The notes under the pieces are model-generated. The model worked only from the letters and a program-made list of their open reading frames with translations. It searched no databases and was not told the origin of the DNA. From positions 432,190 through 496,189 of the forward strand of contig JAWLBL010000001.1 of assembly GCA_041687695.1 (NCBI GenBank): DNA of 64,000 nt. The letters are read 5' to 3'. The DNA comes from Myxococcota bacterium (GTDB lineage: Bacteria; Myxococcota_A; UBA9042; PHBI01; JAWLBL01). Both the position numbers and the translations under genes were made by a program. The first letter of the stretch is position 1; every line of letters starts with the position of its first letter. Shown piece after piece: positions 7,049 to 64,000 of the stretch.

Positions 7049-7064
7049 GCGCGCGCTCGCCTCG

Positions 7065-7286: not shown

Positions 7287-7653
7287 GTTCGCTCCGGGTG
7301 ATTGCCCCAGTGATGACCACCAGGCGGATGGCGGGGGCCGGGCCGCGGTGTGCGGCGTCGGTCGGGGCCGGGCCGTGATCGCGATCACGGCGAGCGCGGC
7401 CTCGATCGAGGTCCCCTGCCCTATGGGGACCCGGGCGCCGTGGGACGCGCCACGCAGGACGTGTGCACCGCAAAGGCGACCGATTCGCCTGTTATTCCGT
7501 TGAACTACCGCTCCGTGCGGGGGGCGGGACGCCGCGGCGCTGGTCGGCTGGGCGCCTGTTCGCACTTGGATCGGCAGCGCCCACTCCACAGGAGCGGGCG
7601 GCTCCAGTCAAGCATTCGTCGCCGCCAGGGCCGCGGCGCGCGCCCTGCGACGG

Positions 7654-9051: not shown

Positions 9052-9187
9052 CGGGGACCTCGCGGGTGGGGCGGCGCCGCCAGGGAGGGGACGGCGCGCG
9101 GGTGAGTTTCGCGACAAGCTACCGCGACTCGGGCAAGGTCCGGAAGGGCGGCGGCCGCGGACGGTGCGGGCGCCCGGGAGGCCGACG

Positions 9188-9544: not shown

Positions 9545-9803
9545 GCGTCCGCGTGGCCCCTGACATCGAGCGGGATGTCGGATCACGTCGATCGCGATCT
9601 GTCAAGACCCCGGCCTCGGCGACGACCCGCGCGTCGCGACCGCACCGCGCGCGCGTCGCCGCCCGGGACCGAGCGCCCGCCCGGCCGCAGGGGCGGCGCC
9701 GATGTGCCCGCGACCATTCACCTTCCGGAATGCGATGACGCGTCGCCGGGGTTGGCCCGTTCCGCGCGCGACCAAGGCGCCGAGGCCAGGCCCGAAGTCC
9801 GTA

Positions 9804-9832
9804 TTGACAGCCGGATCGACCTGACCTACCAC
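9804..9832 (+). promoter_or_regulatory. Possible sigma70-type promoter
   Basis: TTGACA (9804-9809), 17-nt spacer, TACCAC; 50 nt upstream of ATG 9882. The -10 match is imperfect. Confidence 0.35.
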
Positions 9833-9881
9833 CGGCACAGCGGCGACCGACACTTTCCGCCGCACACCCTCGGAGAAACTC

Positions 9882-10526
9882 ATGAAGCTCATCACCCGTT
9901 GCGTCAAGTCCGCCTTCCTGGTGGCCGCCCTGACCGGGCTCCTCGGAGCCTCGGCCTGCCAGAAGAAGGAGGAGCCCAAGAAGGAAGAGGCCGCCGCGGC
10001 GACCGACAAGAAGGAAGGCGAGGCCGCCAAGGCCGAGGACGGCGCCGAGAAGAAGGCCGACGAGGCCGCCGGCGCGAACGCCTGCGAGAAGGTCCTCGAG
10101 AAGATGTGCGAGGCCGCCCCGACCATGTGCGACGAGCTCAAGAAGAAGGCCGCCGAGGCGCCCAAGCCGACCGAGGCCGAGCTGGCGGGCTGCGAGGAGC
10201 TGCTCAAGAACGAGGCCAAGCTCAACGAGATGACCGGGGCCATCAAGGCCGCGGCCGAGCTCAAGAAGGGCGCCGAGGCCGCCGCCGCCGCCGCCGCCGA
10301 GGGCGAGGCCAAGCCCGAGGGCGAGGCTCCCGCCGCCGCCGAGGGTGAGGCCAAGCCCGAGGGCGAGGCTCCCGCCGCCGCCGAGGGTGAGGCCAAGCCC
10401 GAGGGCGAGGCTCCCGCCGCCGCCGAGGGTGAGGCCAAGCCCGCCGAGGGTGAGGCCAAGCCCGAGGGCGAGGCTCCGGCCGCCGCCGAGGGCGAGGGCA
10501 AGGCCGAGGAGAAGGCCGCCGAGTAG
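9882..10526 (+). CDS. Lipoprotein with Glu/Ala/Lys/Pro-rich repeats
   Basis: Lipobox ASAC, small 4-Cys helical core, C-terminal AAAEGEAKPEGEAP repeats. Confidence 0.8.
   Translation: MKLITRCVKSAFLVAALTGLLGASACQKKEEPKKEEAAAATDKKEGEAAKAEDGAEKKADEAAGANACEKVLEKMCEAAPTMCDELKKKAAEAPKPTEAELAGCEELLKNEAKLNEMTGAIKAAAELKKGAEAAAAAAAEGEAKPEGEAPAAAEGEAKPEGEAPAAAEGEAKPEGEAPAAAEGEAKPAEGEAKPEGEAPAAAEGEGKAEEKAAE
10290..10503 (+). repeat. Coding 42-bp tandem repeat (AAAEGEAKPEGEAP)
   Basis: Near-identical copies of gccgccgccgagggtgaggccaagcccgagggcgaggctccc. Confidence 0.85.
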
Positions 10527-10642: not shown

Positions 10643-11842
10643 ATGTCCGCCCGCCTCGCCGAGCTCGCTTCGACCTCGATGTCCCTGGCCCGCTTCGCCC
10701 TGGCGCTCTGCGCGATGGCCGCCGCCGCGGCGTGCGGCGACGCGCCGGTCGAGACCGCGTCCTCGACCTGCAGCTGCGAGGGCCGCGCCTGCGGCGACGA
10801 CGGCTGCGGCGCCTCCTGCGGCGCGTGCGGCGACGGGACGACCTGCTTCGGCGGCCAGTGCATCGACGCGGCCGAGTGCGACGTCGTCGGGTTCGCGCCC
10901 ACGGCCGAGTCGGTGTTCACGCGCCGCGCCGGAGGGCAGCAGCGCCTGCACTACGTCGCGACGACCAAGACCGTCTCGCCGCCCTTCGACATGGTGGTCA
11001 TCGACCTCGACCACGCCGGCTTCTTCCCCGGGGGCGTCCCGGCGGCCGGCACCTACGACCTCGCCGGCCTCGACGGCCCGACCTGCAGCCTATGCGTGCG
11101 CGGCTTCGGCTTCTGCAACGATCAGGACTGCTTCAACAAGTTCGTCGCCAAGGAGGGGCGCCTGACCCTGTCCGAGACGGGCGAGCCGGGCACCCCCTTC
11201 GTCGGCCGCCTCGACGCCGTGAAGTTCCAGCAGATCCGCATCACCGACAGCGGCCAGGTCACGCCACACCCCTCCGGCAAGACCTGGTGCCTCGACCAGC
11301 TGGCCTTCTCGCAGGACGTCCCGCCCCTGCCCGACAGCAGCAGCACCTGCGTCGCGCCCGGGACCGGCACCAAGGTCGGCGACAACATCGGCGACTTCGC
11401 CCTGACCAACTGCCTGGGCGAAGAGGTCGCCCTGCACGCCCGCTGCGGCGCCGCCAAGGCCCTGTGGGTGGTCGCCGTGGCCGGCTGGTGCGGCGCCTGC
11501 GAGAGCTTCGTGCCCTACGTCGCGCAGCAGTACGCCGAGCGCTCGGACGACGGCCTCGAGATCATGATCGTCCTCGGCGAGGACAACCACGGCGGCAAGC
11601 CCTCGCTCGATTACTGCAAGGCCTACGCGAGCCACCACGGCGTCGACCCGCGGCTGGTCTTCGTCGACCACGGCACCAGCGGCTGGCAGCAGACCTTCTC
11701 GAAGATCGAGACCTACTCGGGCGGCACCCTGGGCCTGCCGTGGAATGCGCTCCTCGACGCGACCAGCATGGAGTATGTCTGGAGCACCAACGCCGGCACC
11801 GGCGACCTCGCCGCCGAGCTCGACGCCCTGCTCCAGCCCTGA
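10643..11842 (+). CDS. Cys-rich lipoprotein with C-terminal thioredoxin-like (TlpA/redoxin) domain
   Basis: Lipobox AAAC, CEGRACGDDGCGASCGAC motif, C-terminal VGDNIGDFALTNC...AGWCGAC...GLPWN. Start may be 10679. Confidence 0.75.
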   Translation: MSARLAELASTSMSLARFALALCAMAAAAACGDAPVETASSTCSCEGRACGDDGCGASCGACGDGTTCFGGQCIDAAECDVVGFAPTAESVFTRRAGGQQRLHYVATTKTVSPPFDMVVIDLDHAGFFPGGVPAAGTYDLAGLDGPTCSLCVRGFGFCNDQDCFNKFVAKEGRLTLSETGEPGTPFVGRLDAVKFQQIRITDSGQVTPHPSGKTWCLDQLAFSQDVPPLPDSSSTCVAPGTGTKVGDNIGDFALTNCLGEEVALHARCGAAKALWVVAVAGWCGACESFVPYVAQQYAERSDDGLEIMIVLGEDNHGGKPSLDYCKAYASHHGVDPRLVFVDHGTSGWQQTFSKIETYSGGTLGLPWNALLDATSMEYVWSTNAGTGDLAAELDALLQP

Positions 11843-11848
11843 CCCCGC

Positions 11849-12703
11849 GTGACGATGCTCGGTCCCGACGCCTTCCAGCTCCTCTGCCTCGCCGTCCTCG
11901 CCACCGCCTGGGCCTTCCTGCTGCGCCAGGGGGACGACGCCCGCGCCCTCGCTCGTGACGGCCTGCTCCTGGGCGCTGGCGCCTGGCTCGGCGAGCAAAC
12001 ATGCATCGCCTGGTACGCCTTCTACGGCTACGCCGACTTCTGGTGGGTCCGCCTCGGCCACATCCCGCTGCTCGTCGCCCTCATCTGGCCCATGGTCATC
12101 CTCTCGGCGCGCCAGGTCGTCGGCGCCCTCGCCCCCAACGCGCGCGGCCTCGCCTCCGCCGCCCTGGTCGGCCTCGTCGTCATCTTCGACGCCTCGCTCG
12201 TAGAGGTCGTCGCCGTCCGCGCCGGCCTGTGGGCCTGGGCCGAGGGCGGCTACCTGGACGTCCCCCTCATCGGCATCCTGGGCTGGGGCTTTTACGGCGC
12301 CGCCGCCTCGTGGTGGCTCGACCGCGCCCGCGGCCCCTGGCGCCTGGCCCTGCCCCTGGTCGCCCTCCCCCTCACCCACGGCCTCATCCAGCTCGCCTGG
12401 TGGGCCCTGTTCCGCTGGACCCTGCGCGACCCGGCCACCCTCGGCCCCACCCTCTTCTGGGCCGCCTTCGCCGCCCTCGCCCTCGCCTTCGCCCTGCGCG
12501 CCCGCGCCCGCGGCCTCGGCCTGCCCCTCGACACCGCCCTGCCCCGCGTCCTCGCCTCGGCCGTCTTCCTCTACCTGCTCGTCACCTTCGACGCATCGGA
12601 CGACACCTGGCTCCGCTGGCGCCACACCGCCCTGGTCGCCGTCCCCTACCTGGTCGCGACCCGCTGGTCCCGCGCCCCCGCCCCCGCGCTGGCGGCCCGC
12701 TGA
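11849..12703 (+). CDS. Integral membrane protein, CruF/DUF422-like
   Basis: Multiple TM segments; E...YGY...LGHIPL, DASLVEVVAVRAGLWAW, YLDVPLIGILGW. Confidence 0.6.
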   Translation: MTMLGPDAFQLLCLAVLATAWAFLLRQGDDARALARDGLLLGAGAWLGEQTCIAWYAFYGYADFWWVRLGHIPLLVALIWPMVILSARQVVGALAPNARGLASAALVGLVVIFDASLVEVVAVRAGLWAWAEGGYLDVPLIGILGWGFYGAAASWWLDRARGPWRLALPLVALPLTHGLIQLAWWALFRWTLRDPATLGPTLFWAAFAALALAFALRARARGLGLPLDTALPRVLASAVFLYLLVTFDASDDTWLRWRHTALVAVPYLVATRWSRAPAPALAAR

Positions 12704-12710
12704 CGCGCCC

Positions 12711-14789
12711 TCACGGGCAGCCCGGCAGCGCGCACGGCGGGTCCTCGCACAGGTCGGCCACCCGCATCATCCACAGCGTCGGCGGCGTCGCGGCCGTCCG
12801 CCCGAACAGGGCCAGCCCCCCGTCCAGCGCCACCACCGCCGTAGCCGCCCGCGGCAGCGCCATCCCGGTCCACTCGTGGCCACCCGCCGACACGCCCGCC
12901 GGCGACAAACGCTGGAAGGCGACGGCGACGTTGCCCGGCCCCGAACGCGCCACCAGCACGTCCCCCTCGGCCGTGAGCGCCGCGTCGACCGGGTCGCCGC
13001 TGGCCTGCGACCACGCCACCTGACCGTCCGCCCCGACCGCCGCCAGCGCCCACTGCGCGCCCACGATCCAGCCCCCGTTCGGCCCCGGCCTCGCGAAGGT
13101 CGGCGTCCCCGTGGCGTCCCCCAGGACCGCGGCCTCGGGCCACGCCAGCGCGCCGTCGGCGGTCAGGGCCCTCACCTCCAGCTTCGCGCCGCCTGGCTTC
13201 GGCACCCAGGCTGCCACCACCGCGCCCGCCGGGCCGCCGCCGAAGACCACGGCCGTGGGGTCCAGGTTGTCCATCGTGGTCTCCCAGACCGGGTCTCCGG
13301 CGGCCGTCACCCGCCGCACCGTCACGTCCTGCTTGGTCGCGGTGCCGATGAGCAGGTCGCCCTCGGGCCCCGCCGCCAGCCCCAGCACCGTGTAGTGCGG
13401 CAGCGACAGCACCACCGGCGCCCCCGCCTGCCCGTCCGCCCCGAACGTGACCAGCCACGCCGTGTCCAGGACCGAGCTGGTGCGGACCAGGGTCACGATC
13501 TCCCCGTCCGCCCCGAGCACCATCCCCGACAGCCAGGCCGACTCGCCGCCGGGCGGGCTCCAGGTCACGTCCCAGACCACCTCGCCCGCCGGCGTCCAGC
13601 GCACCAATCGGACCTGCCCCTGCGACGGCAGCTCGCCGATCTGCGCCCCGCCCAACAGCAGGTCGCCGCCGCTCAGCGCCAGCCCGAACGCCGGCACGTA
13701 CTTAGACGTCGTGCCCACGACGCGCTCCCAGCTCGACACGCCCTGCCCGACGCACTGCCCCTGCTGGCACAACCCGCCGACCTCGCACTCCGATGGCGCG
13801 CAGCTGGCCACCTGCGCCGTGTGCACGCACCCGACCGCCGCGTCGCAGGCGTCCTTGGTGCACGGGTCACCGTCGTCGCAGTCCAACGCCACGCCCTCGC
13901 ACACGCCCGCGGCGACGCACACCGTCTCGACCGTGCACGGGTCGCCGTCGTCGCACGCGCCCCCCTGCGTCCATCCCGGCCCGGTGCACGGCGCCAGCGC
14001 CTGGCACACGCCGTCCACGCAGCGTGCCGTGTCTGCCACTGGGCAGGCCTCGACGCCCCACGGTTCCTCGCAATACCACGACGGCTCCACGGCCCCGCAC
14101 CACGCGCCGACCAGCGCCTTGATCTGTCCCTCGAAGGCCACCAGCTGCGCGTCGGCTATAGCGTGGCTACACAGGTCCCCGCATGCACCGCCGAGGGCGG
14201 TGACGACCACGCACTCCGCGTCCTGCTCGCACGCCGCGAGCTGGCTCGCCGCTTCGGCGATGGCGTGCCGGGCGCCGACGACCAGGTCCTGGCAGCCCTT
14301 GCACCCCTCGGGCGTCGTGAACTGCCCGAAGTCGCAGCCCTCAGAGCACGCGGCCAACAAGCAGTGGTCCGTGTGGAAGCACGACCAGGTCCCCCCGTTG
14401 CAGTCGCAGACGAGGCTGTCGTCGCAGCTGCCGCAGCAGCACTCCGTTCCGTACGTGCACTCTCCCCAGACCGCGCAAGCGCCGTCGAAGGGCGGCTCCT
14501 CGGGCGGACACGTGGTCGGTACGTCCGGGACGACGTCACCCTCACCGACATCTCCCCCGACGTCGGCATCGCCGATGTCACCCGCGGCGTCGCCGTCGCC
14601 CACGACGACACCGTCCGAGTCGGCAACGTCCGCCAGCGCGTCCTCCATCGCGTCCTGGTCCTTGGACGCATCGACTTCGCCGGCGCCGTCCCCGGCGTCC
14701 TCGGCCCCCGCAGGCTCGCCGCAGGCCACCATCGCCCAGGCGGTCAGCGCGGCAGCCAGGGCCCAGCGAGAGGTAGTGATCTTCTTCAT
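12711..14789 (-). CDS. Cys-rich lipoprotein with C-terminal beta-propeller-like region
   Basis: MKKITTSRW signal ending MVAC, acidic linker, CDDGDPCT repeats, W-anchored propeller-like blades. Confidence 0.7.
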   Translation of the reverse strand: MKKITTSRWALAAALTAWAMVACGEPAGAEDAGDGAGEVDASKDQDAMEDALADVADSDGVVVGDGDAAGDIGDADVGGDVGEGDVVPDVPTTCPPEEPPFDGACAVWGECTYGTECCCGSCDDSLVCDCNGGTWSCFHTDHCLLAACSEGCDFGQFTTPEGCKGCQDLVVGARHAIAEAASQLAACEQDAECVVVTALGGACGDLCSHAIADAQLVAFEGQIKALVGAWCGAVEPSWYCEEPWGVEACPVADTARCVDGVCQALAPCTGPGWTQGGACDDGDPCTVETVCVAAGVCEGVALDCDDGDPCTKDACDAAVGCVHTAQVASCAPSECEVGGLCQQGQCVGQGVSSWERVVGTTSKYVPAFGLALSGGDLLLGGAQIGELPSQGQVRLVRWTPAGEVVWDVTWSPPGGESAWLSGMVLGADGEIVTLVRTSSVLDTAWLVTFGADGQAGAPVVLSLPHYTVLGLAAGPEGDLLIGTATKQDVTVRRVTAAGDPVWETTMDNLDPTAVVFGGGPAGAVVAAWVPKPGGAKLEVRALTADGALAWPEAAVLGDATGTPTFARPGPNGGWIVGAQWALAAVGADGQVAWSQASGDPVDAALTAEGDVLVARSGPGNVAVAFQRLSPAGVSAGGHEWTGMALPRAATAVVALDGGLALFGRTAATPPTLWMMRVADLCEDPPCALPGCP

Positions 14790-53364: not shown

Positions 53365-55113
53365 ATGACGCTGACCGCTCGGCTCGCCGCCGCGCGCCCC
53401 TGGCTCCCCCTCGTGGCCGCGCTCGCCCTCTTCCTCGCCCTCGCCGGCTGGTACGGAGAGGTCGCCGGCGTCTGGCACGAGGAGACCTCCATCTACCCCA
53501 ACCGGGGCTACCACATCCTCGCCCCGCCCGGCGAGCAGGCCCTCCCGCGCCTCGAGCCCTCCTGCGCCGACCCCGACGCCCCGCGCCTCATCCGCTCCCA
53601 GCAGCGCCCCATCCTCAGCCTCTGCGCCGGCGGCCGCGGCTACCCGGTCATGGTCGACTCCTACCTCGCCGGCTGGCTCTACTGGCCCGCCGACCTCCTG
53701 CGCCCCCTGCACGGCGACGACATCTTCGCCCTCCGCAAGCTCGGCCTCCTCCTCGGCGCCCTCAGCCTGGTCCTCACCTTCCTCCTCGTCCGCCGCCTCG
53801 CCGACGCCCGCCTCGCCGGCGCGGCCGCCCTCGTCACCGCCGCCTCCTCCTGCTTCGCCTACGCCCACGGCGTCCTCATCCACTACGAGTTCACCCCCTG
53901 GCCCCTCCTGGTCGGCGCCCTCCTCGCCCTCACCCGCGTCGCCCCCCTCGCCCCCGGCGCCCCCGCCGGCCCCCTCCCCTGGCGCTGGCTCCTCCTCGCC
54001 GCCCTCCTCGCCGGCGCCTCCGTCGCCGCCAACATCAAGACCGCCTTCCTCATCGCCCCCCTCGCCCTCGTCAGCCTCTGGCTCGGCGTCCGCTGGCGCC
54101 GCCTCCGCCCCGCCCACTGGCTCGCCATGGCCGCCGTCGCCGCCGTCCCCCTCCTGCCCACCGCCGCCTTCGCCCTGTTCGACCCCGGCGCCGCCTTCGC
54201 CCACCAGGTGAGCGGCCGCGTCGACATCCTCGGCGCCTTCACCCTCGAGCGCCTCGCCCGCCTGCCCATGAACCTGGCCATCTACTGGACCGACATGGGC
54301 GCCTACACCGAGCACCTCACCGGCACCCCCAGCCCGGTCAACTGGCTCACCGCCCTGCTCGCCTGGGCCTCCGTCCTCTACGCCGCCTCCGCCCTCGCCC
54401 GCGCCCGCGCCGGCGACGCCCGCACCCGCCTCGCCGCCGCCGCCGGCGCCGCCCTCCTCGTCTACTTCGCCGTCGTCCTCCTCCTGTACGACCAGTACCC
54501 CGAGGCCAACTACGCCCCCCTCCACTCCATCTTCGGCCTCGCCATGGCCGCCACCCTGCTCGCCCTCGCCCGCCGCCTGGCCGCCCTCGCCCCCGCCCTG
54601 TCGCCGGCCGCCGCCCCCGCCCTGGTCGCCCTGACCGCCGCCGTCCTCGCCTACAACTGCGTCCGCCGCGGCGCCCCCTCGGACACCATGCCCATGGGCA
54701 TCAACGCCGCCGCCCAGCGCGCCCTCGACGCCTGGCTCGACCAGCACCCCACCCCGGCCCCGCCCCTGCTCACCACCACCTACAACCTGGCCGGCGTCGT
54801 CGAAGCCATGGGCCCGCCCCCGGCCCGCGTCGTCCAGGCCAACCGCTTCCTGATGAACTGCCCGACCGACCCGCCGGCCGACGCCGACGCCTGCCTGACC
54901 CGCCGCTGGCGCGATCTCCTGGCCGCCTCGGACCCGGGCCCGCTGCACGTCCTGGCCCCGCGCAAGGCCAGCCCCATCGACGACCCGCTGACCGACCAGG
55001 TCGCCCCGGCCCTGCGCGCCGCCGCCGCCGCCCTCGGCCGCCGCGTCTCCGAAGCCCGCGCGTTCACGACCGGCCTGGGCGTCCCCGTCCTGGTCGTCTA
55101 CCGGGTCGACTGA
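53365..55113 (+). CDS. Polytopic membrane protein, probable GT-C (ArnT/PMT-like) glycosyltransferase
   Basis: TM1 followed by an acidic WHEET motif and periplasmic loop, then 10 or more TM segments with LRKL...TFLLVRRL; periplasmic C-terminal domain. Confidence 0.6.
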   Translation: MTLTARLAAARPWLPLVAALALFLALAGWYGEVAGVWHEETSIYPNRGYHILAPPGEQALPRLEPSCADPDAPRLIRSQQRPILSLCAGGRGYPVMVDSYLAGWLYWPADLLRPLHGDDIFALRKLGLLLGALSLVLTFLLVRRLADARLAGAAALVTAASSCFAYAHGVLIHYEFTPWPLLVGALLALTRVAPLAPGAPAGPLPWRWLLLAALLAGASVAANIKTAFLIAPLALVSLWLGVRWRRLRPAHWLAMAAVAAVPLLPTAAFALFDPGAAFAHQVSGRVDILGAFTLERLARLPMNLAIYWTDMGAYTEHLTGTPSPVNWLTALLAWASVLYAASALARARAGDARTRLAAAAGAALLVYFAVVLLLYDQYPEANYAPLHSIFGLAMAATLLALARRLAALAPALSPAAAPALVALTAAVLAYNCVRRGAPSDTMPMGINAAAQRALDAWLDQHPTPAPPLLTTTYNLAGVVEAMGPPPARVVQANRFLMNCPTDPPADADACLTRRWRDLLAASDPGPLHVLAPRKASPIDDPLTDQVAPALRAAAAALGRRVSEARAFTTGLGVPVLVVYRVD

Positions 55114-57044
55114 GCCCCGCCGCCGCCGCCCAGCAGCGCCTCGAGCCGCGCCGCCAGCCCGCGCACCCACTCCGGCCGCGCCTCGCAGGCCCGCCCCTGC
55201 CACTGCCCGCGGTACCCCAGCGCGAACCCGGCCGCCCGCACCAGCGCCCGCCGCTCGGCGACGTCCGGCTCGATGTCGACCGCCTGCAGCGCCCCCTCGC
55301 GCGCGAACAGGGCCACCGCGCCGTCGCCGGCCGGGACCAGCTCGTGAAGGCGCCACCCGTCCAGCCCGCCGCTCGCCTCGACCTGCCGCAGCAGCTCGCC
55401 CAGCAGCAGCTTCAGGCCGTGCTCGCCCGCCACGTCCGGCGCCGCCTCCCCATCGTCCCCGGCCGAGAGGCCGGCCTGCCGAACCGGGTCGCCCGCCGGC
55501 GCCGTCGGCGCGCCGAAGTAGGTGCTGACCCGCCCGTGCCGGTCCAGCCAGGCCTCGACCTCGTCGTCTCCCAGCTCGGGCAGCAGCCTGCGAATCAGGT
55601 GCTCGCGCGGGATGGGCGAGCTGACGACCAGGCGGCCGCCGAAGCGCTCGAACACCCCCAGAAAGCGCCGCGCCCGCACCCGCGGGTCGCCGCCCGGCGT
55701 GGGCGTGCGCCAGTCGTAGCCGCGCGTCGGCCCCTCGGCGGTGGCCAGCAGCCCCTGGTCCATCGCGTCGGGCATGCGCATCAGCGGCATCACCCCCAGC
55801 TCGCTGATGACCCCCAGGTCGATGGCCCAGTCCATGAAGTCCAGCGTCTCGCGGTAGTCGGCTTCGGTCTCCTCGGGGAAGCCCACGATGACGTTGACGC
55901 TGACCTGCATGCGGCCGCCGCCGACCGCTCCGATGGTCTCGAGAGCCCGCGCCACCTCGTCCGCGCGCCCCGGCTTCTTCACGCGCCGGCGCAGGCGCTC
56001 GCTGGCGGTCTCGAGGCCGAAGAAGGGGCGCGTCAGGCCGGCGGCCAGGTACTTCACCACGCGGGCGGGCGTGATGCGCCCGTCGATGATGATCATCGCC
56101 TGCAGCGCGGTCGAGGTGGTCCAGCGGGCGGCGGCGATGGCGTCGCACAGGGCGTCGAACTGCGCGGGCCAGGCGTTGGCGGCAGCGTCGCACAGGGTCA
56201 GCGACAGGTGCGGAGCGGGGCCGCCGGCGTGCAGCGCCTGCCACGCCCGCACGGCCTGGTCCATCTCGGCGGCGACGCGGGCGGCCTCGCGGAACTGCAG
56301 ATCGGGGTACAGGTTGGTGTTCGAGCAGAACACGCAGCGGAACGGGCAGCCCAGGCTCAGCAGGAACGGCACGTCGGGCGCCGGGGTGCCGCGGACCAGG
56401 GCGACGTGGCGGGTGTAGTCGATGGGCGGGATGCGCGGCGAGTCCAGGCGCGGCGGCGGCGCGGCGGGCGGCGTCCCGTGCCGCGGGTTGACCCAGACCC
56501 CCTCCAGGGAGACCTCGCCCAGGCGCCCGGCGAGGGCGGCGCGAAACAGCGGCACGGCGACCGACTCGGCGCGGCGCGAGGCCACGGCGTCCACCCACGG
56601 CTGCTGCAGATCGCCCGCGAAGGTCACCGCCTCGGGCCCGCCCAGCACGACCAGCAGGTCGGGGCGGCGCTCCTTGAGGCGGCGCGTCAGGGTCAACGTC
56701 ACGTCCGCGTTGTGGCGCCACACCGACAGCCCCAGCACGGGCTCGGGCACTGCGGCCAGTCGGTCGAGCAGCGCGTCGAACCAGCCCGCGTGCCGCCGCG
56801 CCAGCGCCTCGATCCGCGCCAGGCGGTCGTCCATCGGCGGCGACGACCAGGCCGTGCGCGCCGCGGCGTCCATCACGTCGGCCGGCGTGTCGGTCGGATC
56901 GTCCAGAAAGCGCAGCGCGCGCGCACCGATGCCGGCCTCCTCGAGCAGCCCGCCGACGAGGACGAGCCCCATCCCCAGCCAGGGACTGGCCTCGTAGGGC
57001 GGCAACATGGCGAGCGCGACCTGCACGCCGCCATGGTCGTTCAA
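55098..57044 (-). CDS. B12-binding-domain radical SAM enzyme (class B methyltransferase-like)
   Basis: N-terminal VLGLSVW...VVLGGPE; GCPFRCVFC (CxxxCxxC); FGLETAS; IVGFPEET. Confidence 0.88.
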   Translation of the reverse strand: MNDHGGVQVALAMLPPYEASPWLGMGLVLVGGLLEEAGIGARALRFLDDPTDTPADVMDAAARTAWSSPPMDDRLARIEALARRHAGWFDALLDRLAAVPEPVLGLSVWRHNADVTLTLTRRLKERRPDLLVVLGGPEAVTFAGDLQQPWVDAVASRRAESVAVPLFRAALAGRLGEVSLEGVWVNPRHGTPPAAPPPRLDSPRIPPIDYTRHVALVRGTPAPDVPFLLSLGCPFRCVFCSNTNLYPDLQFREAARVAAEMDQAVRAWQALHAGGPAPHLSLTLCDAAANAWPAQFDALCDAIAAARWTTSTALQAMIIIDGRITPARVVKYLAAGLTRPFFGLETASERLRRRVKKPGRADEVARALETIGAVGGGRMQVSVNVIVGFPEETEADYRETLDFMDWAIDLGVISELGVMPLMRMPDAMDQGLLATAEGPTRGYDWRTPTPGGDPRVRARRFLGVFERFGGRLVVSSPIPREHLIRRLLPELGDDEVEAWLDRHGRVSTYFGAPTAPAGDPVRQAGLSAGDDGEAAPDVAGEHGLKLLLGELLRQVEASGGLDGWRLHELVPAGDGAVALFAREGALQAVDIEPDVAERRALVRAAGFALGYRGQWQGRACEARPEWVRGLAARLEALLGGGGGAQSTR

Positions 57045-57084
57045 AGCCGCGCCCGCAACAACAGCACCGAGCCCATCACCGCCG

Positions 57085-57921
57085 CTACAGGCGGACGCGG
57101 CGCAGGCGCTTGAAGGCGTCGGCGCCGTCGGTCAGCAGCTTGACCACCCCGCGCGCCCACCAGAAGTTGACCGACACGCTGGCGTCCAGCGAGCGCACCT
57201 GGTGCCACCAGCGCCCGGGCAGGTACAGCAGATCGCCCGGGTGCAGGTCGACCACCAGCGGGCGGGCGTCGCGATAGCGCGGGAAGCGGCGCAGATCGGG
57301 GGCCTCGGGGTCGACGGCGCAAAAGCGCGGCAGTCGCGACAGGAACGGGTACTCGTAGACGCGGCCGTCGTCGCGCGGCGCCAGGATGTGCAGGCGCTTG
57401 CGGCCGCGCAGCTGGGCGAACAGGTTGTCGGGGAAGTCGCGGTGCAGCGGCGAGACGGTCCCGGCGGCGCTCACCCACAGGCGACTCTTCAGGCGCGAGG
57501 CCGCGCCGGCGACCGCGGGCAGCTGGACGTCGTCCAGCAGCGCGGGCAGCCGCTCCTGCACCGGGATGACGACGTAGTGGCCGGGGTCGCTGCCGGCCTC
57601 GACGCGGTCCAGCGCCTCGGCCAGCGACAGCTCGAGATAGGTGATGCCCACGCGCGGGTCGCGGCCGCCGACCACGCCGCGCGGGGTGCGGGCCACCGGG
57701 ACCACGACCTGCCCGTGCTCGGCGCGCAGCCGCTCGGGGGTCCAGCGCGAAAACGCCGGCCAGCGGTCGACGTAGCCGGTGAAGACGGCGGGGCGCTGCG
57801 GCTCGACGAAGTCGCGCACGAAGGCGGCCTCGGACGGCATCGGCAGGCGCGGGATGCGCTCCGGCGCCTCGGGGCGGCTGGTCAGGCGCCGCAGCTCGGC
57901 CCACAAGGCGGCGGGGCTCAC
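57085..57921 (-). CDS. JmjC/cupin_8 Fe(II)/2-oxoglutarate oxygenase B
   Basis: PLHRD..DN...GRK...PGDLLYLPGRWWHQV; GTG start overlaps the upstream TGA (GTGA). Confidence 0.88.
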   Translation of the reverse strand: MSPAALWAELRRLTSRPEAPERIPRLPMPSEAAFVRDFVEPQRPAVFTGYVDRWPAFSRWTPERLRAEHGQVVVPVARTPRGVVGGRDPRVGITYLELSLAEALDRVEAGSDPGHYVVIPVQERLPALLDDVQLPAVAGAASRLKSRLWVSAAGTVSPLHRDFPDNLFAQLRGRKRLHILAPRDDGRVYEYPFLSRLPRFCAVDPEAPDLRRFPRYRDARPLVVDLHPGDLLYLPGRWWHQVRSLDASVSVNFWWARGVVKLLTDGADAFKRLRRVRL

Positions 57922-58724
57922 CGGCTGACGCCCCACAGGCGCTTGAAGGCCCCGGCGGCCGCGGTGACGGCCAGGCGCGCGCCGGTGGCCCACCAGACGT
58001 TGACCGTCAGGCTGGCCTCGAGGGTCGCGACGTGGTGCCACCACCCTCGGGGCAGGAACAGCGTCTCGCCGGGCGCCAGCTCACAGACGTGCGGCCGCGC
58101 CCGGGCGACCCGCGGGAAGCGCTGCAGGTCGACGGCGTCGAGATCGACCCGGCTGGCGTTGGGCACCCCGGCGAACAGCCGCCCCGGATACAGGTTGGGG
58201 CTGTCCTCGGGCGCGAACAGGGTGAAGCGCTTGGACCCGACGATCTGCGCGTGCAGGTTGTCGTTGATGTCCCAGTGCAGCGACGAGCGCGTCCCGCGGG
58301 CCGAGAACCAGACCTTGCACAGCTTCCACGGCGCGCGCCGGCAGTACGGGAAGTCGCCCACCTCGGCCCGCAGCCCGACCGGCAGCTGGTCGAGCCGCGC
58401 CATCATATAGGCGCTCGCCTCGTCGGCCTCCAGCCGGTCCATCAGCGCCCCCAGCGCCATCGGCGTCGTGACCAGCCCCCGCCGCGGGTCGACCTGCACC
58501 ACCCCGCACCGCACCGGCAGCACCGGCACCTGCGCGTCGCCGAAGCGCTGCCGGAGATCCCCCGTCGACCACCGCCGCCGCGCCGGCCAGCCCTCGACCA
58601 GCCCCCGCACCACCACCGGCCGCCGCCGCGCGACGTACCACCGCTGGAACGCCCGGCGGTCCGGCGCCTCGACACGCTCAATCGGCACGGCAGGCAACAT
58701 CGGCGGCGCTCCCCGGTCGCTCAT
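57918..58724 (-). CDS. JmjC/cupin_8 Fe(II)/2-oxoglutarate oxygenase A
   Basis: RRPVVVRG...WPA..RW, SLHWD..DN...GSK...PGETLFLPRGWWHHV. Start at 58724 or 58700. Confidence 0.88.
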   Translation of the reverse strand: MSDRGAPPMLPAVPIERVEAPDRRAFQRWYVARRRPVVVRGLVEGWPARRRWSTGDLRQRFGDAQVPVLPVRCGVVQVDPRRGLVTTPMALGALMDRLEADEASAYMMARLDQLPVGLRAEVGDFPYCRRAPWKLCKVWFSARGTRSSLHWDINDNLHAQIVGSKRFTLFAPEDSPNLYPGRLFAGVPNASRVDLDAVDLQRFPRVARARPHVCELAPGETLFLPRGWWHHVATLEASLTVNVWWATGARLAVTAAAGAFKRLWGVSR

Positions 58725-58841
58725 CGCTCGGCCCGCCCAGTCTAAGTCGCCCACGCGCCGAAGCAAGCGGCCCCCGCCTCGCGGCCACCGTCGAAGGGTC
58801 ATCGCGAGGCCGGGACGGTGTCGTCGCCGCCGCAGGCGGCC

Positions 58842-58934
58842 CCGCGCCGGCCATGCCGGCGCTATGGACCGCGCCGGCCATGCCGGCGCTATGGACCGCG
58901 CCGGCCATGCCGGCGCTATGGACCGCGCCGGCCA
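58842..58934. repeat. 27-bp tandem repeat (~3.4 copies), each with an 8-bp inverted repeat
   Basis: Unit ccGCGCCGGC-cat-GCCGGCGCtatgga at 58842, 58869, 58896, partial at 58923. Confidence 0.9.
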
Positions 58935-59040
58935 CTCCAAGGCTTTTGGACTCTCCCATGGCCCCCCCACCCTCCGGGCCCCCCTTGAGCGCCTCGGCCC
59001 GCCCGCCCTATGATGCGCGTCACACCCCGGGAGGCACCCC

Positions 59041-60381
59041 ATGCTCGACTATCGGCTCGACATCCAGTGGCTGGAGCACATGAACGAAGGCCTCGAGCGC
59101 GCCCGCGCCCTGCGCCGGCCGGTCGTCCTCAAGCCGCTCGGCCAGGGTCGGGGGTGCTTCGAGCAGTGGTGACCCGCCGGATCTCTTGCGAGGGCCGTGA
59201 GCCTCTCCGATCCGCGTGTCAGCCGCTTGCTCAACGAGGCCTTCGTCCCGGTGGTGTTCAGCATGCACCTCCAGGGACCGGGGGTCGATGACCCCGCGCG
59301 CGCGTTCATCAACGCCCAGCGTCCGCAGGGCCAGTCGGACATCCACCCGCCGGACACCTACGTCGTCGACCCCGACGGGCAGGTCCTGGGCCACATCCGC
59401 TACGACGCGGGCGTGCCCGAGACCCTCGCCTTCCTGCGCGACATCCTGAAGGCCCACCCCCAGCTGGCGCCCCCCGACCCCCTCTTGGTGTCCCCCGCGC
59501 CGCCCGCCGACGACGCCGAGGCCACCCTCCTCGCCCTCGAGGCCCGCTACGACTCGGACGACAAGGCCGGCCTCGTCGCCGACCTCGAGGCCTGGCTCGC
59601 CCAGCACGCCGACCGCCTCCCCGGCGCGGCCGCCCTGGCCCGCACCCTGCTCGCCGGCGCCCTCTACTACGCCGGCGACCTCGCGGGCGCCCAGCACCAC
59701 TGGCAGCGCATCGTCGACGAGCACCCCGACCACCCGGTCCGCCACCGCGCCGCCTACAACCTCATCGAGCCCAACGCCTGGCCCAGCCCGGTCCACCCTG
59801 AGCTGCGCGACGCCCGCCACCCCGACGTCGCCGAGCGCGGCCTCATCGTCCCCTCCCCCGACCTGCGCGCCGCCAACCTCGCCCGCGTCGCCTCGGATGA
59901 CCGCTACGTCCAGGTCCGCCCCCACCTCCCCTTCGCGCGCATCCCGGCGGGCACCTTCACCATGGGCGGCTCCCCCGCCCTGCAGGCCCGCGAGCTGCCC
60001 AACCGCCGCGTGACCCTCTCGCGCCCCTTCCTCCTCAGCGCCTGGCCGGTCACCCGCCGCCTCTGGCGCCACTTCCGCCCCGACGCCTTCCCCGGCGCCC
60101 TCTCCGAAGGCCTCGCCGGCGATCTCCCCGCCCTTCAGATCAGCTGCGACGAGGCCGACGCCTTCGTCGCCTTCCTCTCGGCCCGCGACGGCCGCCGCTA
60201 CCGCCTGCCCACCGAAGCCGAGTGGGAGTACGCCGCCCGCGGCGGCCTCGAGGGCAAGGCCCACCCCTGGGGCGACGAGCCGCCCGACCCCACCCGCTGC
60301 AACTACCTGAACCCGCGCGCCGTCCCGGTCGCCTGCTACCCGCCCAACGGCTATGGCCTGTTCGACAACGTCAGTCAATAG
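59041..60381 (+). CDS. Putative selenoprotein: thioredoxin-like (Sec44), TPR-like and FGE-sulfatase (SUMF1/EgtB-type) domains; C-terminally interrupted
   Basis: GGAGG + ATG 59041 is in frame with ORF 59197-60381 through a single TGA (59170-59172): IQWLEHMNEGLERARALRRPVVLKPLGQGRGCFEQW-U-PAGSLARAVSLSDPRVSRLLNEAFVPV. FGE motifs IPAGTFTMG, RLPTEAEWEYAARGG, PNGYGLFD are present; GNxWEW is absent. Confidence 0.8.
59179..59213 (+). promoter_or_regulatory. Bacterial SECIS-like hairpin
   Basis: GGATC/GATCC lower stem, GAG-GGC/GCC-T-CTC upper stem, apical loop CGTGA starting 23 nt after the UGA with G at loop position 2. Confidence 0.7.
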
Positions 60382-60521
60382 CAAGGTGCGAAGGGGTCAC
60401 CTACGGGTCGACCTAACCTTGCGTGCTGAAAGGATGTTGTCGTTTTCCGGTTGGACTTCATCGGTTGCTCTACGCTCGCTCCACGGATCTACGTTCAGAT
60501 CCGACTAACGAGGAACGATCG

Positions 60522-60806
60522 ATGACGACCTACGAGACGATCGAAGGATTGGGCGAGTACGTCCCCCTCGCGGATTGCTTCGTGTTGGATGATGGGGGGT
60601 TCGCCGTCGTGCTAGAGGACGGGCAGGTGCTAGTGGTCCAGCGCCGCTGGTGGGGACGCTGGCAGGCGCAGTTCAACTACCCCGGTCGCGACCACCTGAC
60701 CGCCGTGGCGTCCGGCGACACCATCGAGCAGATGGCCATCGACCTCGCCCATTGGTGGGGGCGGAGGAGTTCAGCGCGACCGCATAGGATGCGCGGCACC
60801 CGATGA
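60522..60806 (+). CDS. Hypothetical protein (element)
   Basis: GAGGA before ATG 60522; protein-like composition. Confidence 0.55.
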   Translation: MTTYETIEGLGEYVPLADCFVLDDGGFAVVLEDGQVLVVQRRWWGRWQAQFNYPGRDHLTAVASGDTIEQMAIDLAHWWGRRSSARPHRMRGTR

Positions 60807-60894
60807 GCATGTCGCACGGCTATGGCCGACAATCGATGGCCCCCGGTAGACGGCCTGGCACGAGCGGGTGGAGGATGCTCCCAGGAGGTACCTC

Positions 60895-61299
60895 ATGAAC
60901 GCGGGAAGCATCATCAGGTTCGTTGAACGCGCCAACGACTTCATCCAAGCGCACTCGAAGCGGGCACGGCGCGACGACGATGAACTGCGGGTGGCTTTGC
61001 AAAGCGTGCCTCAGCTCGTCGCGTACCTGAAGCGGAAGAGTTCTCTTGTTGATGGCGAGGAGCGGCTTGTCGACCTGGCAGTGGTCGGCGAACGCCTGTA
61101 CCGCTTGGCGCGTGACCTCAGAGGTTCACGTGCGCTCGCTGGTCAGGCAGGCAACTGGAGAGGCCTGGAAGAGGGCTGGCCACACCTTCAGACCTACTTG
61201 AGGCGCCATCGCCCGCATCAGGACTTCGTACTGCTGTCGGACCTTATCCAGCGCGTCATGGACGAGGTTCTTACGACTGCAACAACGCCTGAAGCCTAG
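60895..61299 (+). CDS. Hypothetical helical protein (element)
   Basis: AGGAGG before ATG 60895. Confidence 0.6.
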   Translation: MNAGSIIRFVERANDFIQAHSKRARRDDDELRVALQSVPQLVAYLKRKSSLVDGEERLVDLAVVGERLYRLARDLRGSRALAGQAGNWRGLEEGWPHLQTYLRRHRPHQDFVLLSDLIQRVMDEVLTTATTPEA

Positions 61300-61409
61300 G
61301 TTCAGCCCGGGGCTCCCTGGATTCGCGCGACCCACGGTAGACAAGATTTTCCAGGCGCCTGTAGATAGGGGAGCCCGTCACGGCTTCCCTCATCAACAGG
61401 AGCACCCTC

Positions 61410-62063
61410 TTGAGCGACGTTCCCTACTACATTCAGGAGATGGTCGACGACGCCAGGCTGGTTCTACCCGGACTGGACTGGCAGCCGTTGCCTTCCGGCA
61501 TCGAAGCCAAGGTGATGCCCGGCATCAACATCTCCGTCGTCATCCTTGAGGACGACGCAGGCTTCTATGCTTCGTGCAGCCCGTTCGGTGAGTTGGTCGC
61601 TGTCCACGGCAAGAACATGACGCTTGAGGAAACCCTACGGGTCCTCAGTCGGCAGTTGAACAAGGTCGAAGAGGCGATCCATCACAGCCGTGAAGGCGTC
61701 GGCGTTGTAAATCCGCTGGGGCAGCGTGGCAGGTTCGAGAAGGTGGTCTGCGACCTGCTTCGCATCCTTCGCGACGCCACTGATCCCGGGATGGGGCGCA
61801 AGGTGGATGAGTTCCTCTCCACCCTGGACGAGGATGACGTGTGGCGGATCAAGGTCGTGATGTACGCCGGAAGGGAAGGAGAGACCCTCGCAGCCGTCTC
61901 TCGCTCCACGCCCTGCGAGGGCAAGAGCCTCGACAGCCTCTGCATCAGTGAGAAGACCTTGATGCTCAGGCGCTACCTGCTCACGGGCTTCTCGGCAGCC
62001 CGCGAGCAGAAGTTCGACCTCGAAGGGTTATGGACGCCGCGAGTGCGCCCCATGGTCTTCTGA
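61410..62063 (+). CDS. Hypothetical protein with DUF3775-like C-terminus
   Basis: AGGAG + TTG start; FLSTLDEDDVWRIKVVMYAGRE...LRRYLLTG. Confidence 0.6.
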   Translation: MSDVPYYIQEMVDDARLVLPGLDWQPLPSGIEAKVMPGINISVVILEDDAGFYASCSPFGELVAVHGKNMTLEETLRVLSRQLNKVEEAIHHSREGVGVVNPLGQRGRFEKVVCDLLRILRDATDPGMGRKVDEFLSTLDEDDVWRIKVVMYAGREGETLAAVSRSTPCEGKSLDSLCISEKTLMLRRYLLTGFSAAREQKFDLEGLWTPRVRPMVF

Positions 62064-62321: not shown

Positions 62322-63056
62322 TCAACACGCGGGGGTTGGGCAGCACATTTTGCGGCGAGCCGGCCGACCCTCGCTGACCGCGTACCGGTCCCGGATGGCC
62401 TGCCGGAGCTGTCGTTCGTCCTTCGGCGAGAGGGTGTGCTTCATCCTGCCCGCCTTGTCGCCCATCGACCGCACCCCGATCTCTTGGGCGACCCGCCACG
62501 CGGTCGTGTAGCCGATCCCTTCTTCCCGGGCTACGTCAGGGATGCTGCAACGCGATGCCAGCCAGTCGGTCACACGCCTGCACTGGTCCTCCGTCAGCAT
62601 GAACCGGGCGCCGCGCCGGTTCGACGTGCGCGTCACCTTGATGCCCAGGACTTCGATTGCGGCGAACACGTCCCCCTTCGACCATCCGCTGTCCCTGGCG
62701 AGCTGCGTGACCGTGTAGCCGCGATGGTGGGCGGTCCCGAGCAGTACGACCATCCTCTCGTTGATGGACTCGCGGGACCGTTCCAGTGCCGTCGCGATGG
62801 CCGCCTTGCTGGTCGTCCCCCACAAGGCGAGCAGGCGGTTGTCCTCCTCGGGCGTCCAGGGTTGACGGTGCCGCTCAGGCTTGTCGTCGTCGGTCGTCCG
62901 CCGCCCGTGCAGGGCCACCCAGCGGGACGCGGCAGCGGCCGGTGTGCGGCCGAGGGCCTTGCCGATGACCGGCCACCGGTGGCCTTCACGCCGCAGGGCG
63001 GTCAGGCGGGAATCGTCGTCGGGCGTCCAGCGTCGCTTCGGGGTCGGTGCGTTCAC
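62322..63056 (-). CDS. Myb/SANT-like repeat and HTH DNA-binding protein
   Basis: RRWTPDDDSRL...WPVIGKALGRT...RW and QPWTPEEDNRLL...IATALERS, followed by HTH-like segments. Confidence 0.75.
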   Translation of the reverse strand: MNAPTPKRRWTPDDDSRLTALRREGHRWPVIGKALGRTPAAAASRWVALHGRRTTDDDKPERHRQPWTPEEDNRLLALWGTTSKAAIATALERSRESINERMVVLLGTAHHRGYTVTQLARDSGWSKGDVFAAIEVLGIKVTRTSNRRGARFMLTEDQCRRVTDWLASRCSIPDVAREEGIGYTTAWRVAQEIGVRSMGDKAGRMKHTLSPKDERQLRQAIRDRYAVSEGRPARRKMCCPTPAC

Positions 63057-63166: not shown

Positions 63167-63892
63167 TCAGCGCATCACCATTGATTGGAGTATCAACTCA
63201 TGACCATCACTGAACGTGGCCGCTTCCTCATCGAGGCCAAGAAGAACCAGCTCGACGTGCGGGTCTCGAACCCGTCCAGCGATGACCTGATCACGCTCGG
63301 CATCGGTCTCATTGCCGCCGGGCTGCTCTTCAAGGCGCTCGCGGGTTGAGGTGGGTCCAACGCGGTGGCTGACCCGATGTTCGCGCTGACGGTCAGCCAC
63401 TCCGCGCCAGGAGCCCTCAGAGCCCGAGACGAGCCGCAAGAGTTGCGAACGCGAAGCCTGCAACCAGCGGGTCCACGCCGTTGCCGAGCATCTTGAGGCG
63501 GTCCAGCCGATCGGGACCCCCATCAGCCACTCTAGGAACGCCGGCGCCAATGGCCCGCCGATGGCTGCGTTGACCGCCCAGGTCTTCCGCCGCCTCTGGG
63601 CGGGGCCTCCCGAGTTCTTCGCGTCGTTGCAGGTAGGCGTCGGCCAGCGCCCCGTGCCGTTGAGAAGGACGCACCACTCGACCGGGAAGGGCTCCACATC
63701 GCCGGAGGGCGTCACCACGTCGAGCAGGTCGCCGTTGCAGAGCCAGACCTCGCCCGCCCAGATGTCGTCCACGCCACCCCAATCGAGGTCGGCTTCGGTC
63801 ACCACCACCACCGCGCCTTCCCAGAATGAAGATCCTCGCCCTGGCGTGCGTGGCGCCAACGTCTTCCGATCTGAACAGATCCCAGCAAACAT
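63167..63892 (-). CDS. Overlapping alternative-frame ORF carrying MTase motif IX-like sequence
   Basis: WPTPT...GGPLAPAFLEWLMGVPIGWT in a different frame over the same DNA. Start uncertain (possibly GTG near 63811 after GGAAGG). Confidence 0.5.
   Translation of the reverse strand: MFAGICSDRKTLAPRTPGRGSSFWEGAVVVVTEADLDWGGVDDIWAGEVWLCNGDLLDVVTPSGDVEPFPVEWCVLLNGTGRWPTPTCNDAKNSGGPAQRRRKTWAVNAAIGGPLAPAFLEWLMGVPIGWTASRCSATAWTRWLQASRSQLLRLVSGSEGSWRGVADRQREHRVSHRVGPTSTRERLEEQPGGNETDAERDQVIAGRVRDPHVELVLLGLDEEAATFSDGHELILQSMVMR
63200..63349 (+). CDS. Small single-TM protein (49 aa), below the ORF-track cutoff
   Basis: GGAG at 63187-63190; MTITERGRFLIEAKKNQLDVRVSNPSSDDLITLGIGLIAAGLLFKALAG*. Confidence 0.55.
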   Translation: MTITERGRFLIEAKKNQLDVRVSNPSSDDLITLGIGLIAAGLLFKALAG

Positions 63893-63905
63893 CGAACCCG
63901 AGGTG
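63417..63905 (-). pseudogene. C5 DNA-cytosine methyltransferase C-terminal half (motifs VII, VIII, X), frame broken at its 5' side
   Basis: Frame reads HLGFDVCWDLFRSEDVGATHARARIFILG...RVADGGPDRLDRLKMLGNGVDP; in-frame TGA at 63906-63908; upstream GDL lies in another frame. Confidence 0.7.
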
Positions 63906-64000
63906 TCAGGTCCCCCCTTCCCAACCCGGTAGCGGGAGGGTAGGTCCAGAATTGGCGTCCCTCGTCCTGCGCGGCGATACCGAGAGCCGTGGGCGGGACG

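What the first reader, a model, noticed from the sequence alone, without database searches (positions are those of the whole stretch)
60340..60520. Phage-like element inserted into the conserved FGE motif of the selenoprotein gene; possible excision-controlled gene switch
Seen: the FGE domain runs normally to PPNGYGLFD, then ends NVSQ*. At exactly this point (~60367-60373) base composition drops sharply. Established: this family continues D-M-x-G-N-V-W-E-W plus the C-terminal part of the domain. Gene-interrupting elements that excise to restore a gene are known (skin in sigK, SPbeta in spsM, nifD/fdxN elements). Inference: this is an att junction, and the missing 3' half should lie at the far end of the element beside a recombinase. 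The GLxDMxGN-coding DNA is conserved across many FGE paralogues, so it could be a recurrent attB. A 7-bp inverted repeat CGGATCT-acgttc-AGATCCG (60484-60503) lies nearby.
Basis: partly seen in the sequence, partly recalled or inferred. Interest (0 to 1): 0.8.

Follow-up and report, generated by a model that had tools for sequence, protein, structure and literature searches.

The report
Prophage splitting a selenoprotein gene
A bacterial virus has inserted itself into the middle of a gene for a selenium-containing protein, leaving both halves intact and its cut-and-paste enzyme in place, so removal would restore the gene; viruses with this kind of enzyme often land inside genes, and nothing here shows that the host uses it as a switch.

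Summary
The junction is real. The FGE-sulfatase domain of a Sec-containing gene (start 59041, UGA at 59170) breaks at a 7-bp core, TTCGACA (60361-60367). The missing 3' half lies on contig C57 behind the same core, 302 bp from an intact 608-aa large serine recombinase. An uninterrupted 488-aa allele from another assembly differs by 3 residues in the 5' half and none in the 3' half, and a 151-bp contig of another run bridges the left junction. The element is phage-derived (recombinase plus primase, as in a related prophage), IS-damaged, at least 10.8 kb, and its middle is not assembled. Not shown: excision, a directionality factor, regulation. The codon is not a recurrent attB in what was searched (0 of 27 related recombinase loci, 0 of 400 genomes with a narrow pattern, 0 of 80 metagenome loci); related recombinases cut comM, recA, a uracil glycosylase and tex. 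Verdict: strain-specific prophage insertion by a serine integrase; the switch is possible, unproven. The scan had not reported this locus; a recombinase with the same extra C-terminal domain was noted in another genome.

The parts
58985..59014 (+). Promoter-like site (TTGAGC-18-TATGAT) in front of the interrupted gene
   Evidence: Consensus scan, 9 of 12 matches; 1 found in 58800-61000, 0.1 expected from shuffles. A match, not a shown promoter.
59041..60367 (+). 5' part (442 codons) of a Sec-thioredoxin-like / TPR / FGE-sulfatase gene; full protein 540 aa
   Evidence: N-terminal region resembles Thioredoxin_2 + TPR clusters by language-model features, score 0.91-0.93 (a lead only); intact allele P0153.
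59170..59172 (+). In-frame UGA, inferred selenocysteine 44, followed by a short hairpin about 20 nt downstream
   Evidence: UGA at the same place in L082, L083, L271, Cys in L001; SelA, SelB, tRNA-Sec in the genome. A similar hairpin folds in all three sequences tested, but z-scores are 0.03, 0.76 and -2.16, so the SECIS is not shown by energy.
60361..60367 (+). attL core TTCGACA, repeated at attR (C57:5908-5914, minus strand); likely crossover dinucleotide GA at 60364-60365
   Evidence: Direct repeat at both junctions. Reconstructed attP is most symmetric about GA: 12 of 24 positions, with a 6-bp run TAGCAA 14-19 bp out on both arms; P = 0.09 for the total and 0.034 for the run in shuffles. 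Crossover position is inferred.
60368..60386 (+). Phage-side arm of attL; supplies NVSQ and the TAG stop that truncates the host protein
   Evidence: Bridged by a 151-bp contig of run X1 (60267-60417, 1 other letter, depth 2).
60484..60503 (.). 7-bp inverted repeat; not part of the att core
   Evidence: Present; chance 0.057 in shuffles.
60522..60806 (+). 94-aa ORF, first gene inside attL; unknown function, untested candidate directionality factor by position only
   Evidence: No Pfam or PHROG match; singleton cluster.
60868..62063 (+). Two cargo ORFs (143 aa, 217 aa) of unknown function
   Evidence: no Pfam or PHROG match.
62322..63056 (-). Myb/HTH DNA-binding protein, phage regulator-like
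   Evidence: PF00249, PF13921; phrog_323, E 2.9e-15.
63167..63892 (-). DNA-methyltransferase-like pieces; 87% identical over 476 bp to a copy in another prophage at C1:7680-8154
   Evidence: phrog_1008, phrog_32758; BLASTN.
63904..64000 (+). End of a multi-copy IS-like repeat at which contig C1 stops; the same end terminates C57
   Evidence: Same 98 bp at five contig ends; target duplicates of 5 and 6 bp pair 2 of the 5 copies, not the C1 or C57 copy. The right arm (outside the window, C57:5915-13177) holds an 84-aa ORF (5965-6219), the recombinase (6216-8042), a methyltransferase fusion (8311-10491), a 255-aa ORF and an IS-cut primase (11830-13177).

Best explanation
A temperate phage with a large serine recombinase (LSR) recombined its attP with an attB inside the Asp codon of the G-L-F-D-M-x-G-N motif of this gene (shown: both junctions, shared core, intact allele elsewhere; inferred: crossover at GA, catalysis by this LSR). 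The insertion is strain-specific and has since taken IS insertions in its primase and next to its methyltransferase-like gene, so it is probably a damaged prophage (inferred; the middle is missing). While integrated, the host makes at best a 446-aa protein lacking the last third of the FGE domain, and four downstream genes on C57 (PhyH-amidohydrolase, WelO5-like oxygenase, radical SAM/SPASM, UbiA-like) are parted from the promoter-like site (inferred). The gene is accessory, so the loss is tolerated. Precise excision would restore the 540-aa protein, but it most likely happens only on prophage induction, if at all, and not as a host-timed switch.
For: 3' half on C57 with the same core and the LSR start 302 bp away. 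Only one 5'-cut and one 3'-only FGE piece among 16 FGE-bearing frames in the genome. Intact allele P0153: 3 differences in 390 residues, 0 in 98, so the site is empty in a near-identical strain; 6 of 6 element proteins looked up are singletons among 15 billion. LSR keeps S19, R91, R94, C354, C356, C366, invariant in 29 homologues; model pLDDT 88, best matches are serine integrase structures. A relative pairs a 31% identical LSR with a 45% identical primase in a prophage with terminase, portal and head genes. Related LSRs sit beside cut comM, recA, uracil-DNA glycosylase and tex genes, and the same genome has a second recA split by a 35-kb prophage: landing in genes is routine, as Durrant et al. 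report (PMC10083194, passages). The host gene was found in 3 of 106 other genomes of the class searched.
Against: Both halves show no decay and the LSR and att sites are intact, which is also what a maintained switch would look like. SPbeta acts as a switch while being an active prophage (PMC4191935, passages), so a recent or mobile element can still be a switch. The left junction also stands in run X1, where neighbouring pieces differ by 2 of 148, 8 of 151 and 16 of 150 letters, a weak hint that the site is occupied in a second, diverged strain. C1 and C57 are not joined by any contig or read; the structural genes of this element were not found in the assembly.
Confidence: 0.7

Rival explanations
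1. Excision-controlled switch (active lysogeny): the host times excision to rebuild the selenoprotein gene and reconnect the downstream operon, as skin does for sigK and SPbeta for spsM. The trigger would be a directionality factor: the 84-aa ORF coupled to the LSR, the 94-aa ORF inside attL, or the LSR's own C-terminal MerR/excisionase-like domain.
For: Intact LSR, att sites and gene halves; the gene heads a probable operon; primase cut by IS ends, so lytic replication may be lost while excision is kept; 12 of 29 clade members hit HTH_17 and 11 of 29 MerR_1, and the model's tail matches the MerR-like RacA (5i44, E 0.12, rmsd 2.8).
Against: Site empty in a near-identical strain; the other full-length homologues seen (L001, L082, L083, L271) are uninterrupted; no second case at this codon; neither empty attB nor attP is in this assembly; no directionality factor identified; the G000 LSR itself has no Pfam hit in its tail, only PHROG hits (E 2.2e-5 and 0.069).
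Confidence: 0.15
2. The two halves no longer flank one excisable element: recombination between IS copies or between the two related prophages on C1 has inverted or split it (for instance C57 continuing into the prophage tail at the left end of C1), so the gene is locked off or needs an inversion to re-form.
For: C1 right and C57 right end in the same IS end and neither has a partner with a matching target duplicate; the unpartnered opposite ends include the left end of C1, which begins in phage tail genes; the two methyltransferase-like copies on C1 are 87% identical inverted repeats.
Against: Unpartnered IS flanks are the rule in this assembly (8 of 10 IS66-like ends, 6 of 10 ends of the other IS); the C57 copy sits inside the end of another multi-copy IS, which explains a missing flank; the C-terminal two thirds of the primase is absent from the assembly, as expected if small or repeat-bound contigs were dropped.
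Confidence: 0.12
3. Assembly or binning artefact: a chimeric join at 60367.
For: The genome is a 63-contig assembly; the source reads were not available.
Against: Two independent junctions on two contigs share a 7-bp core that rebuilds, letter for letter at protein level, an allele known from another assembly; an LSR stands at one of them; a contig of another run bridges attL with 94 and 50 letters on the two sides.
Confidence: 0.02

Closest known systems
LSR-bearing prophages integrated in protein-coding genes (catalogue of Durrant et al. 2022, PMC10083194; main-text passages and a word search of 8 supplements seen)
   Same: Resolvase + Recombinase + zinc-ribbon/coiled-coil LSR next to an att site; element disrupts a conserved coding sequence; relatives of this LSR hit comM, the commonest target in that paper (12.4% of site-specific LSRs).
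   Different: Target is an FGE-sulfatase domain of a selenoprotein; 'sulfatase', 'PF03781' and 'formylglycine' do not occur in that paper's main text or supplements (attB sites there are listed without gene names, so this is not proof). The LSR is at most 38% identical to any other cluster representative and carries a C-terminal HTH.
SPbeta in spsM, Bacillus subtilis (SprA/SprB; PMC4191935, passages seen)
   Same: Prophage inside a biosynthetic gene, LSR at one end, precise excision would rebuild the frame.
   Different: There excision, the directionality factor SprB and its mother-cell promoter are shown; here none is. Core 16 bp there, 7 bp here.
skin in sigK, Listeria comK prophage, cyanobacterial nifD/fdxN elements (PMC8987985 passages for comK and the general class; PMC5025042 and PMC4874684 search listing only; the rest recalled)
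   Same: Damaged or reduced mobile element splitting a gene into two intact halves.
   Different: Those target genes needed at a defined developmental or infection stage; this target is a rare accessory gene and the site is empty in a near-identical strain.
Related prophage in G424 (C8, about 54-85 kb)
   Same: LSR 31% and primase 45% identical, adjacent.
   Different: It keeps terminase, portal and head genes on one contig; its primase is whole (1266 aa); no FGE gene beside its LSR.

Membership tests
Large serine recombinase (integrase) | Resolvase domain with catalytic Ser and Arg residues | tested here: met
   PF00239 above cut-off; S19, R91, R94 invariant in 29 sequences
Large serine recombinase (integrase) | Recombinase domain, zinc ribbon and coiled coil | tested here: met
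   PF07508 above cut-off; C354, C356, C366 invariant; two long helices 410-462; fold matches serine integrase structures, E 1.8e-16
Large serine recombinase (integrase) | attP with imperfect inverted symmetry about a central dinucleotide | tested here: inconclusive
   Best symmetry about GA, 12 of 24, P 0.09; 6-bp run P 0.034
Large serine recombinase (integrase) | Catalyses attP x attB recombination | not testable with these tools
   Needs an assay
Integrated prophage | attL and attR with a shared core; empty attB in a sister strain | tested here: met
Integrated prophage | Phage replication and regulatory genes | tested here: met
   Primase/helicase, methyltransferases, regulator by PHROG; primase 45% identical to that of a prophage with head genes
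Integrated prophage | Head, tail and lysis genes within the element | tested here: inconclusive
   None in the 10.8 kb of assembled arms; middle missing; homologues of the relative's head genes map only to another prophage on C19
Gene-switch element (active lysogeny) | Precise excision restores an intact reading frame | tested here: met
   Joining at the core gives 540 aa and matches P0153 across the junction; shows that it could, not that it does
Gene-switch element (active lysogeny) | Excision occurs in the host without lysis | not testable with these tools
   No reads of this strain; neither attB nor attP in the assembly
Gene-switch element (active lysogeny) | Directionality factor under host control | tested here: inconclusive
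   No candidate matches a library family
Gene-switch element (active lysogeny) | Element or site kept across strains or species | tested here: not met
   Empty in P0153's strain and in 4 of 4 more distant homologues; one weak hint of a second occupied strain
Recurrent attB in FGE genes | Other elements at the same codon | tested here: not met
   0 of 27 related LSR loci (flanks up to 1.5 kb, some cut by contig ends); 0 of 400 genomes with a narrow pattern; 0 of 80 metagenome loci of at least 118 had an LSR within 2.5 kb upstream
Bacterial selenoprotein | Conserved in-frame UGA aligned with Cys; Sec machinery in the genome | tested here: met
   42, 109, 110
Bacterial selenoprotein | SECIS hairpin after the UGA | tested here: inconclusive
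   Similar hairpin in 3 of 3, significant in 1 of 3

The most novel reading that the evidence does not exclude
A replication-dead prophage acts as a host-timed switch in a myxobacterium-like host: its serine integrase, carrying a built-in excisionase-like domain, excises it to rebuild a selenoprotein gene and reconnect a biosynthetic operon. That would add a new lineage and a new kind of target to active lysogeny and give a natural integrase-directionality-factor fusion.
Probability: 0.1. Interest if true: 0.8.

Novelty: new member of a known kind. Interest (0 to 1): 0.36.

Why it matters
As it stands: a fully defined attB/attP pair for an LSR that is at most 38% identical to any other cluster representative, from a clade with an extra C-terminal HTH, ready to assay; and a host gene that gene callers break twice (at the UGA and at the prophage), a Sec-thioredoxin-like/TPR/FGE fusion for which I found no paper. 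If excision were host-timed, it would extend gene-switch prophages to a new lineage; a paper search for Myxococcota + prophage + serine recombinase + disrupt found nothing.

Tried and rejected
Complex prediction of LSR residues 290-608 with the 84-aa ORF: no verdict, score 0.07; the 94-aa ORF was not tried. No RNA holder listed. Word-based protein search with the LSR returned only itself, and with the host N-terminal part only the window's own protein. Viral-contig scans with the LSR (1 spurious 15-residue hit), the primase (0) and the 3'-half pattern (0) led nowhere. Metagenome scan with P0153 found no relative, so the sister strain's DNA was not seen. The LSR alignment was too divergent for the locus scan. 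Single-sequence fold of the host 5' half was too poor to use (pLDDT 44). An apparent truncation of the acyl-CoA dehydrogenase at C1:10.6 kb was an effect of my print limit; the gene is whole. The L103 locus has an FGE fragment inside a broken LSR next to an IS; it is a mosaic, not an att site. In the metagenome pattern scan 19 of 80 loci had no FGE hit directly upstream by my profile; most are divergent intact genes, and of 7 loci read in full (5 of these 19 plus 2 others) none had a recognisable recombinase (tyrosine integrases were judged by eye only). The pattern only finds elements whose arm starts like this one; 6 other genomes matched, 1 in an FGE gene, intact. No promoter consensus was found in front of the LSR. 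Paper searches with no hit.

Full report
Observation. The window is the last 64 kb of contig C1 of a 7.97-Mb, 73% GC genome in 63 contigs. The gene at 59041 reads through a UGA at codon 44 to ...GYGLFD, then NVSQ and a stop at 60379-60381. Pfam FGE-sulfatase covers positions 7-180 of 255. GC falls from 0.747 in the 300 bp before 60367 to 0.59 in the 300 bp after. The 7-bp inverted repeat is there but occurs in 5.7% of shuffles and lies 120 bp inside the element.

The other end. A full-length homologue (L001, 45% identical) gave the missing C-terminal part as a query; its best hit in the genome is on contig C57, minus strand from 5914. That frame begins F-D-M-I-G-N-N-F-E-W, covers Pfam positions 179-254 and ends in a stop. 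Both junctions carry TTCGACA; GC in C57 is 0.664 on the element side and 0.765 on the host side. Of 16 FGE-bearing frames that my profile found in the genome, only C1 is cut at the 3' end and only C57 is a lone 3' piece. Joined at the core the protein is 540 aa. The 90% cluster of the truncated protein holds a 488-aa member from another assembly (P0153, contig 146 kb; the third member, 36 aa, is unrelated). It differs at 3 of 390 residues in the 5' half and 0 of 98 in the 3' half and runs straight through the junction. So the site is empty in a near-identical strain. In run X1 (one run, 8% of words) a 151-bp contig at depth 2 bridges attL with one other letter; other short pieces of the locus differ by 1-11%. 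This argues against a chimera and weakly hints at a second occupied strain.

The element. 302 bp inside attR starts a 608-aa large serine recombinase, behind an 84-aa ORF that overlaps its start codon and has a ribosome-binding site. It keeps the catalytic serine and arginines and three zinc-ribbon cysteines, invariant in 29 sequences; its model (pLDDT 88) matches serine integrase structures. No other cluster representative among the best 150 exceeds 38% identity. The reconstructed attP is most symmetric about GA, with TAGCAA 14-19 bp out on both arms (P 0.034 for the run, 0.09 for the total); this fits the modular attP layout described in PMC11722253 (passages) but is only suggestive. The right arm also holds a double methyltransferase, a 255-aa ORF and a primase; the left arm holds three unknown ORFs, a Myb/HTH regulator and methyltransferase-like pieces. 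In genome G424 a 31% identical LSR and a 45% identical primase stand side by side in a prophage with terminase, portal and head genes, so the element is phage-derived. Both contigs end in the same end of a five-copy IS-like repeat; on C57 it sits 17 bp inside the end of a second IS, which itself cuts the primase at about residue 450 of about 1270. Calling them IS21-like and IS66-like is from memory of their terminal letters. The arms total 3,536 + 7,263 bp; the middle, including the rest of the primase, is not in the assembly. That C1 and C57 are the two ends of one element in direct orientation is therefore inferred, not shown; unpartnered IS flanks are common here (8 of 10 and 6 of 10).

The host gene. 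UGA44 aligns with UGA in three homologues and Cys in one, and SelA, SelB and tRNA-Sec are present. The N-terminal part resembles thioredoxin-like + TPR proteins (a lead). All NCBIfam hits (PvdO, SenA, EgtB) are far under cut-off, so no enzyme can be named. The gene follows a promoter-like site, and on C57 it is followed on the same strand by PhyH-amidohydrolase, WelO5-like, radical SAM/SPASM and UbiA-like genes with gaps under 100 bp: probably one operon, whose head the prophage has cut off. The full-length gene was found in 3 of 106 other genomes of the class, uninterrupted in each. An earlier scan note calls the host an uncultured myxobacterium (e1-730464); I did not check this.

Is the codon a recurrent attB? 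Not in what I could search. Of 27 loci with related LSRs in the same class or phylum, none has an FGE half at its att side (flanks up to 1.5 kb, some cut short). Four could be read as cutting other genes: comM (G021), recA (G045), a uracil-DNA glycosylase (G421) and tex (G016) (only one half was seen in each). A narrow pattern over 400 genomes found no other cut FGE gene. Of 80 metagenome loci (of at least 118) where an FGE 3' half lacks the usual upstream codons, none had an LSR within 2.5 kb. Durrant et al. show that LSR elements commonly disrupt genes and that comM alone takes 12.4% of site-specific LSRs (PMC10083194, passages); 'sulfatase', 'PF03781' and 'formylglycine' are absent from its text and 8 supplements. 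The same genome has a second recA split by a prophage of about 35 kb with its own LSR, beside an intact recA (lead from e1-7687790).

Is it a switch? What is shown is the capacity: intact enzyme, intact sites, intact halves. What defines the known switches is regulated excision without lysis and a directionality factor under host control (SprB for SPbeta, PMC4191935, passages; review PMC8987985, passages). Neither can be seen here, neither attB nor attP is in the assembly, and the site is empty in a sister strain. Intact halves are equally expected of a recent insertion. One feature keeps the bolder reading open: this LSR clade ends in a MerR/excisionase-like HTH (12 of 29 hit HTH_17, 11 of 29 MerR_1; in G000 only PHROG and weak fold hits). 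Engineered integrase-factor fusions drive excision (PMC12286644, passages); a search for a natural fusion found no paper, and an earlier scan note read a similar tail as extra DNA binding (e1-5272464). Extra DNA binding or autoregulation is the likelier role.

Verdict. A real, well-defined prophage insertion by a serine integrase into a rare selenoprotein gene: 0.70 passive strain-specific insertion, 0.15 host-used switch, 0.12 rearranged and not simply excisable, 0.02 artefact. New member of a known kind; interest 0.36.

Noticed in passing
G000 C19, about 108-144 kb: A second recA copy is split by a prophage of about 35 kb with an LSR at 142.7 kb; an intact recA is on C27. Already noted by the scan.
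   Followed up: partly
L080:7830-8042 and alignment A1: The LSR clade carries one or two C-terminal MerR/HTH_17 domains; a few members lack it.
   Followed up: partly
G000 C1:1-10600 (L108): Tail and lysis end of another prophage, starting at an IS end and ending beside an intact acyl-CoA dehydrogenase with a short direct repeat after its stop; no matching head or terminase found in the assembly.
   Followed up: partly
L103 (G151:C77): A broken LSR with an FGE-domain fragment in its place on the opposite strand, next to an IS transposase.
   Followed up: no
window 58850-58935: A 27-bp unit repeated three times just upstream of the promoter-like site (my notebook entry says 22 bp, a slip).
   Followed up: no
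window 53365-58800 and L001: Upstream lie a PMT_2 glycosyltransferase-like gene, a B12 radical SAM gene and two JmjC/cupin genes; the L001 homologue also sits among oxygenase-like, glycosyltransferase-like and radical SAM-like ORFs (read by eye), which hints at a shared tailoring pathway.
   Followed up: no
G045:C129, G021:C36, G421:C195, G016:C38: Related LSRs stand directly beside cut recA, comM, uracil-DNA glycosylase and tex genes: four more att sites for this clade.
   Followed up: partly
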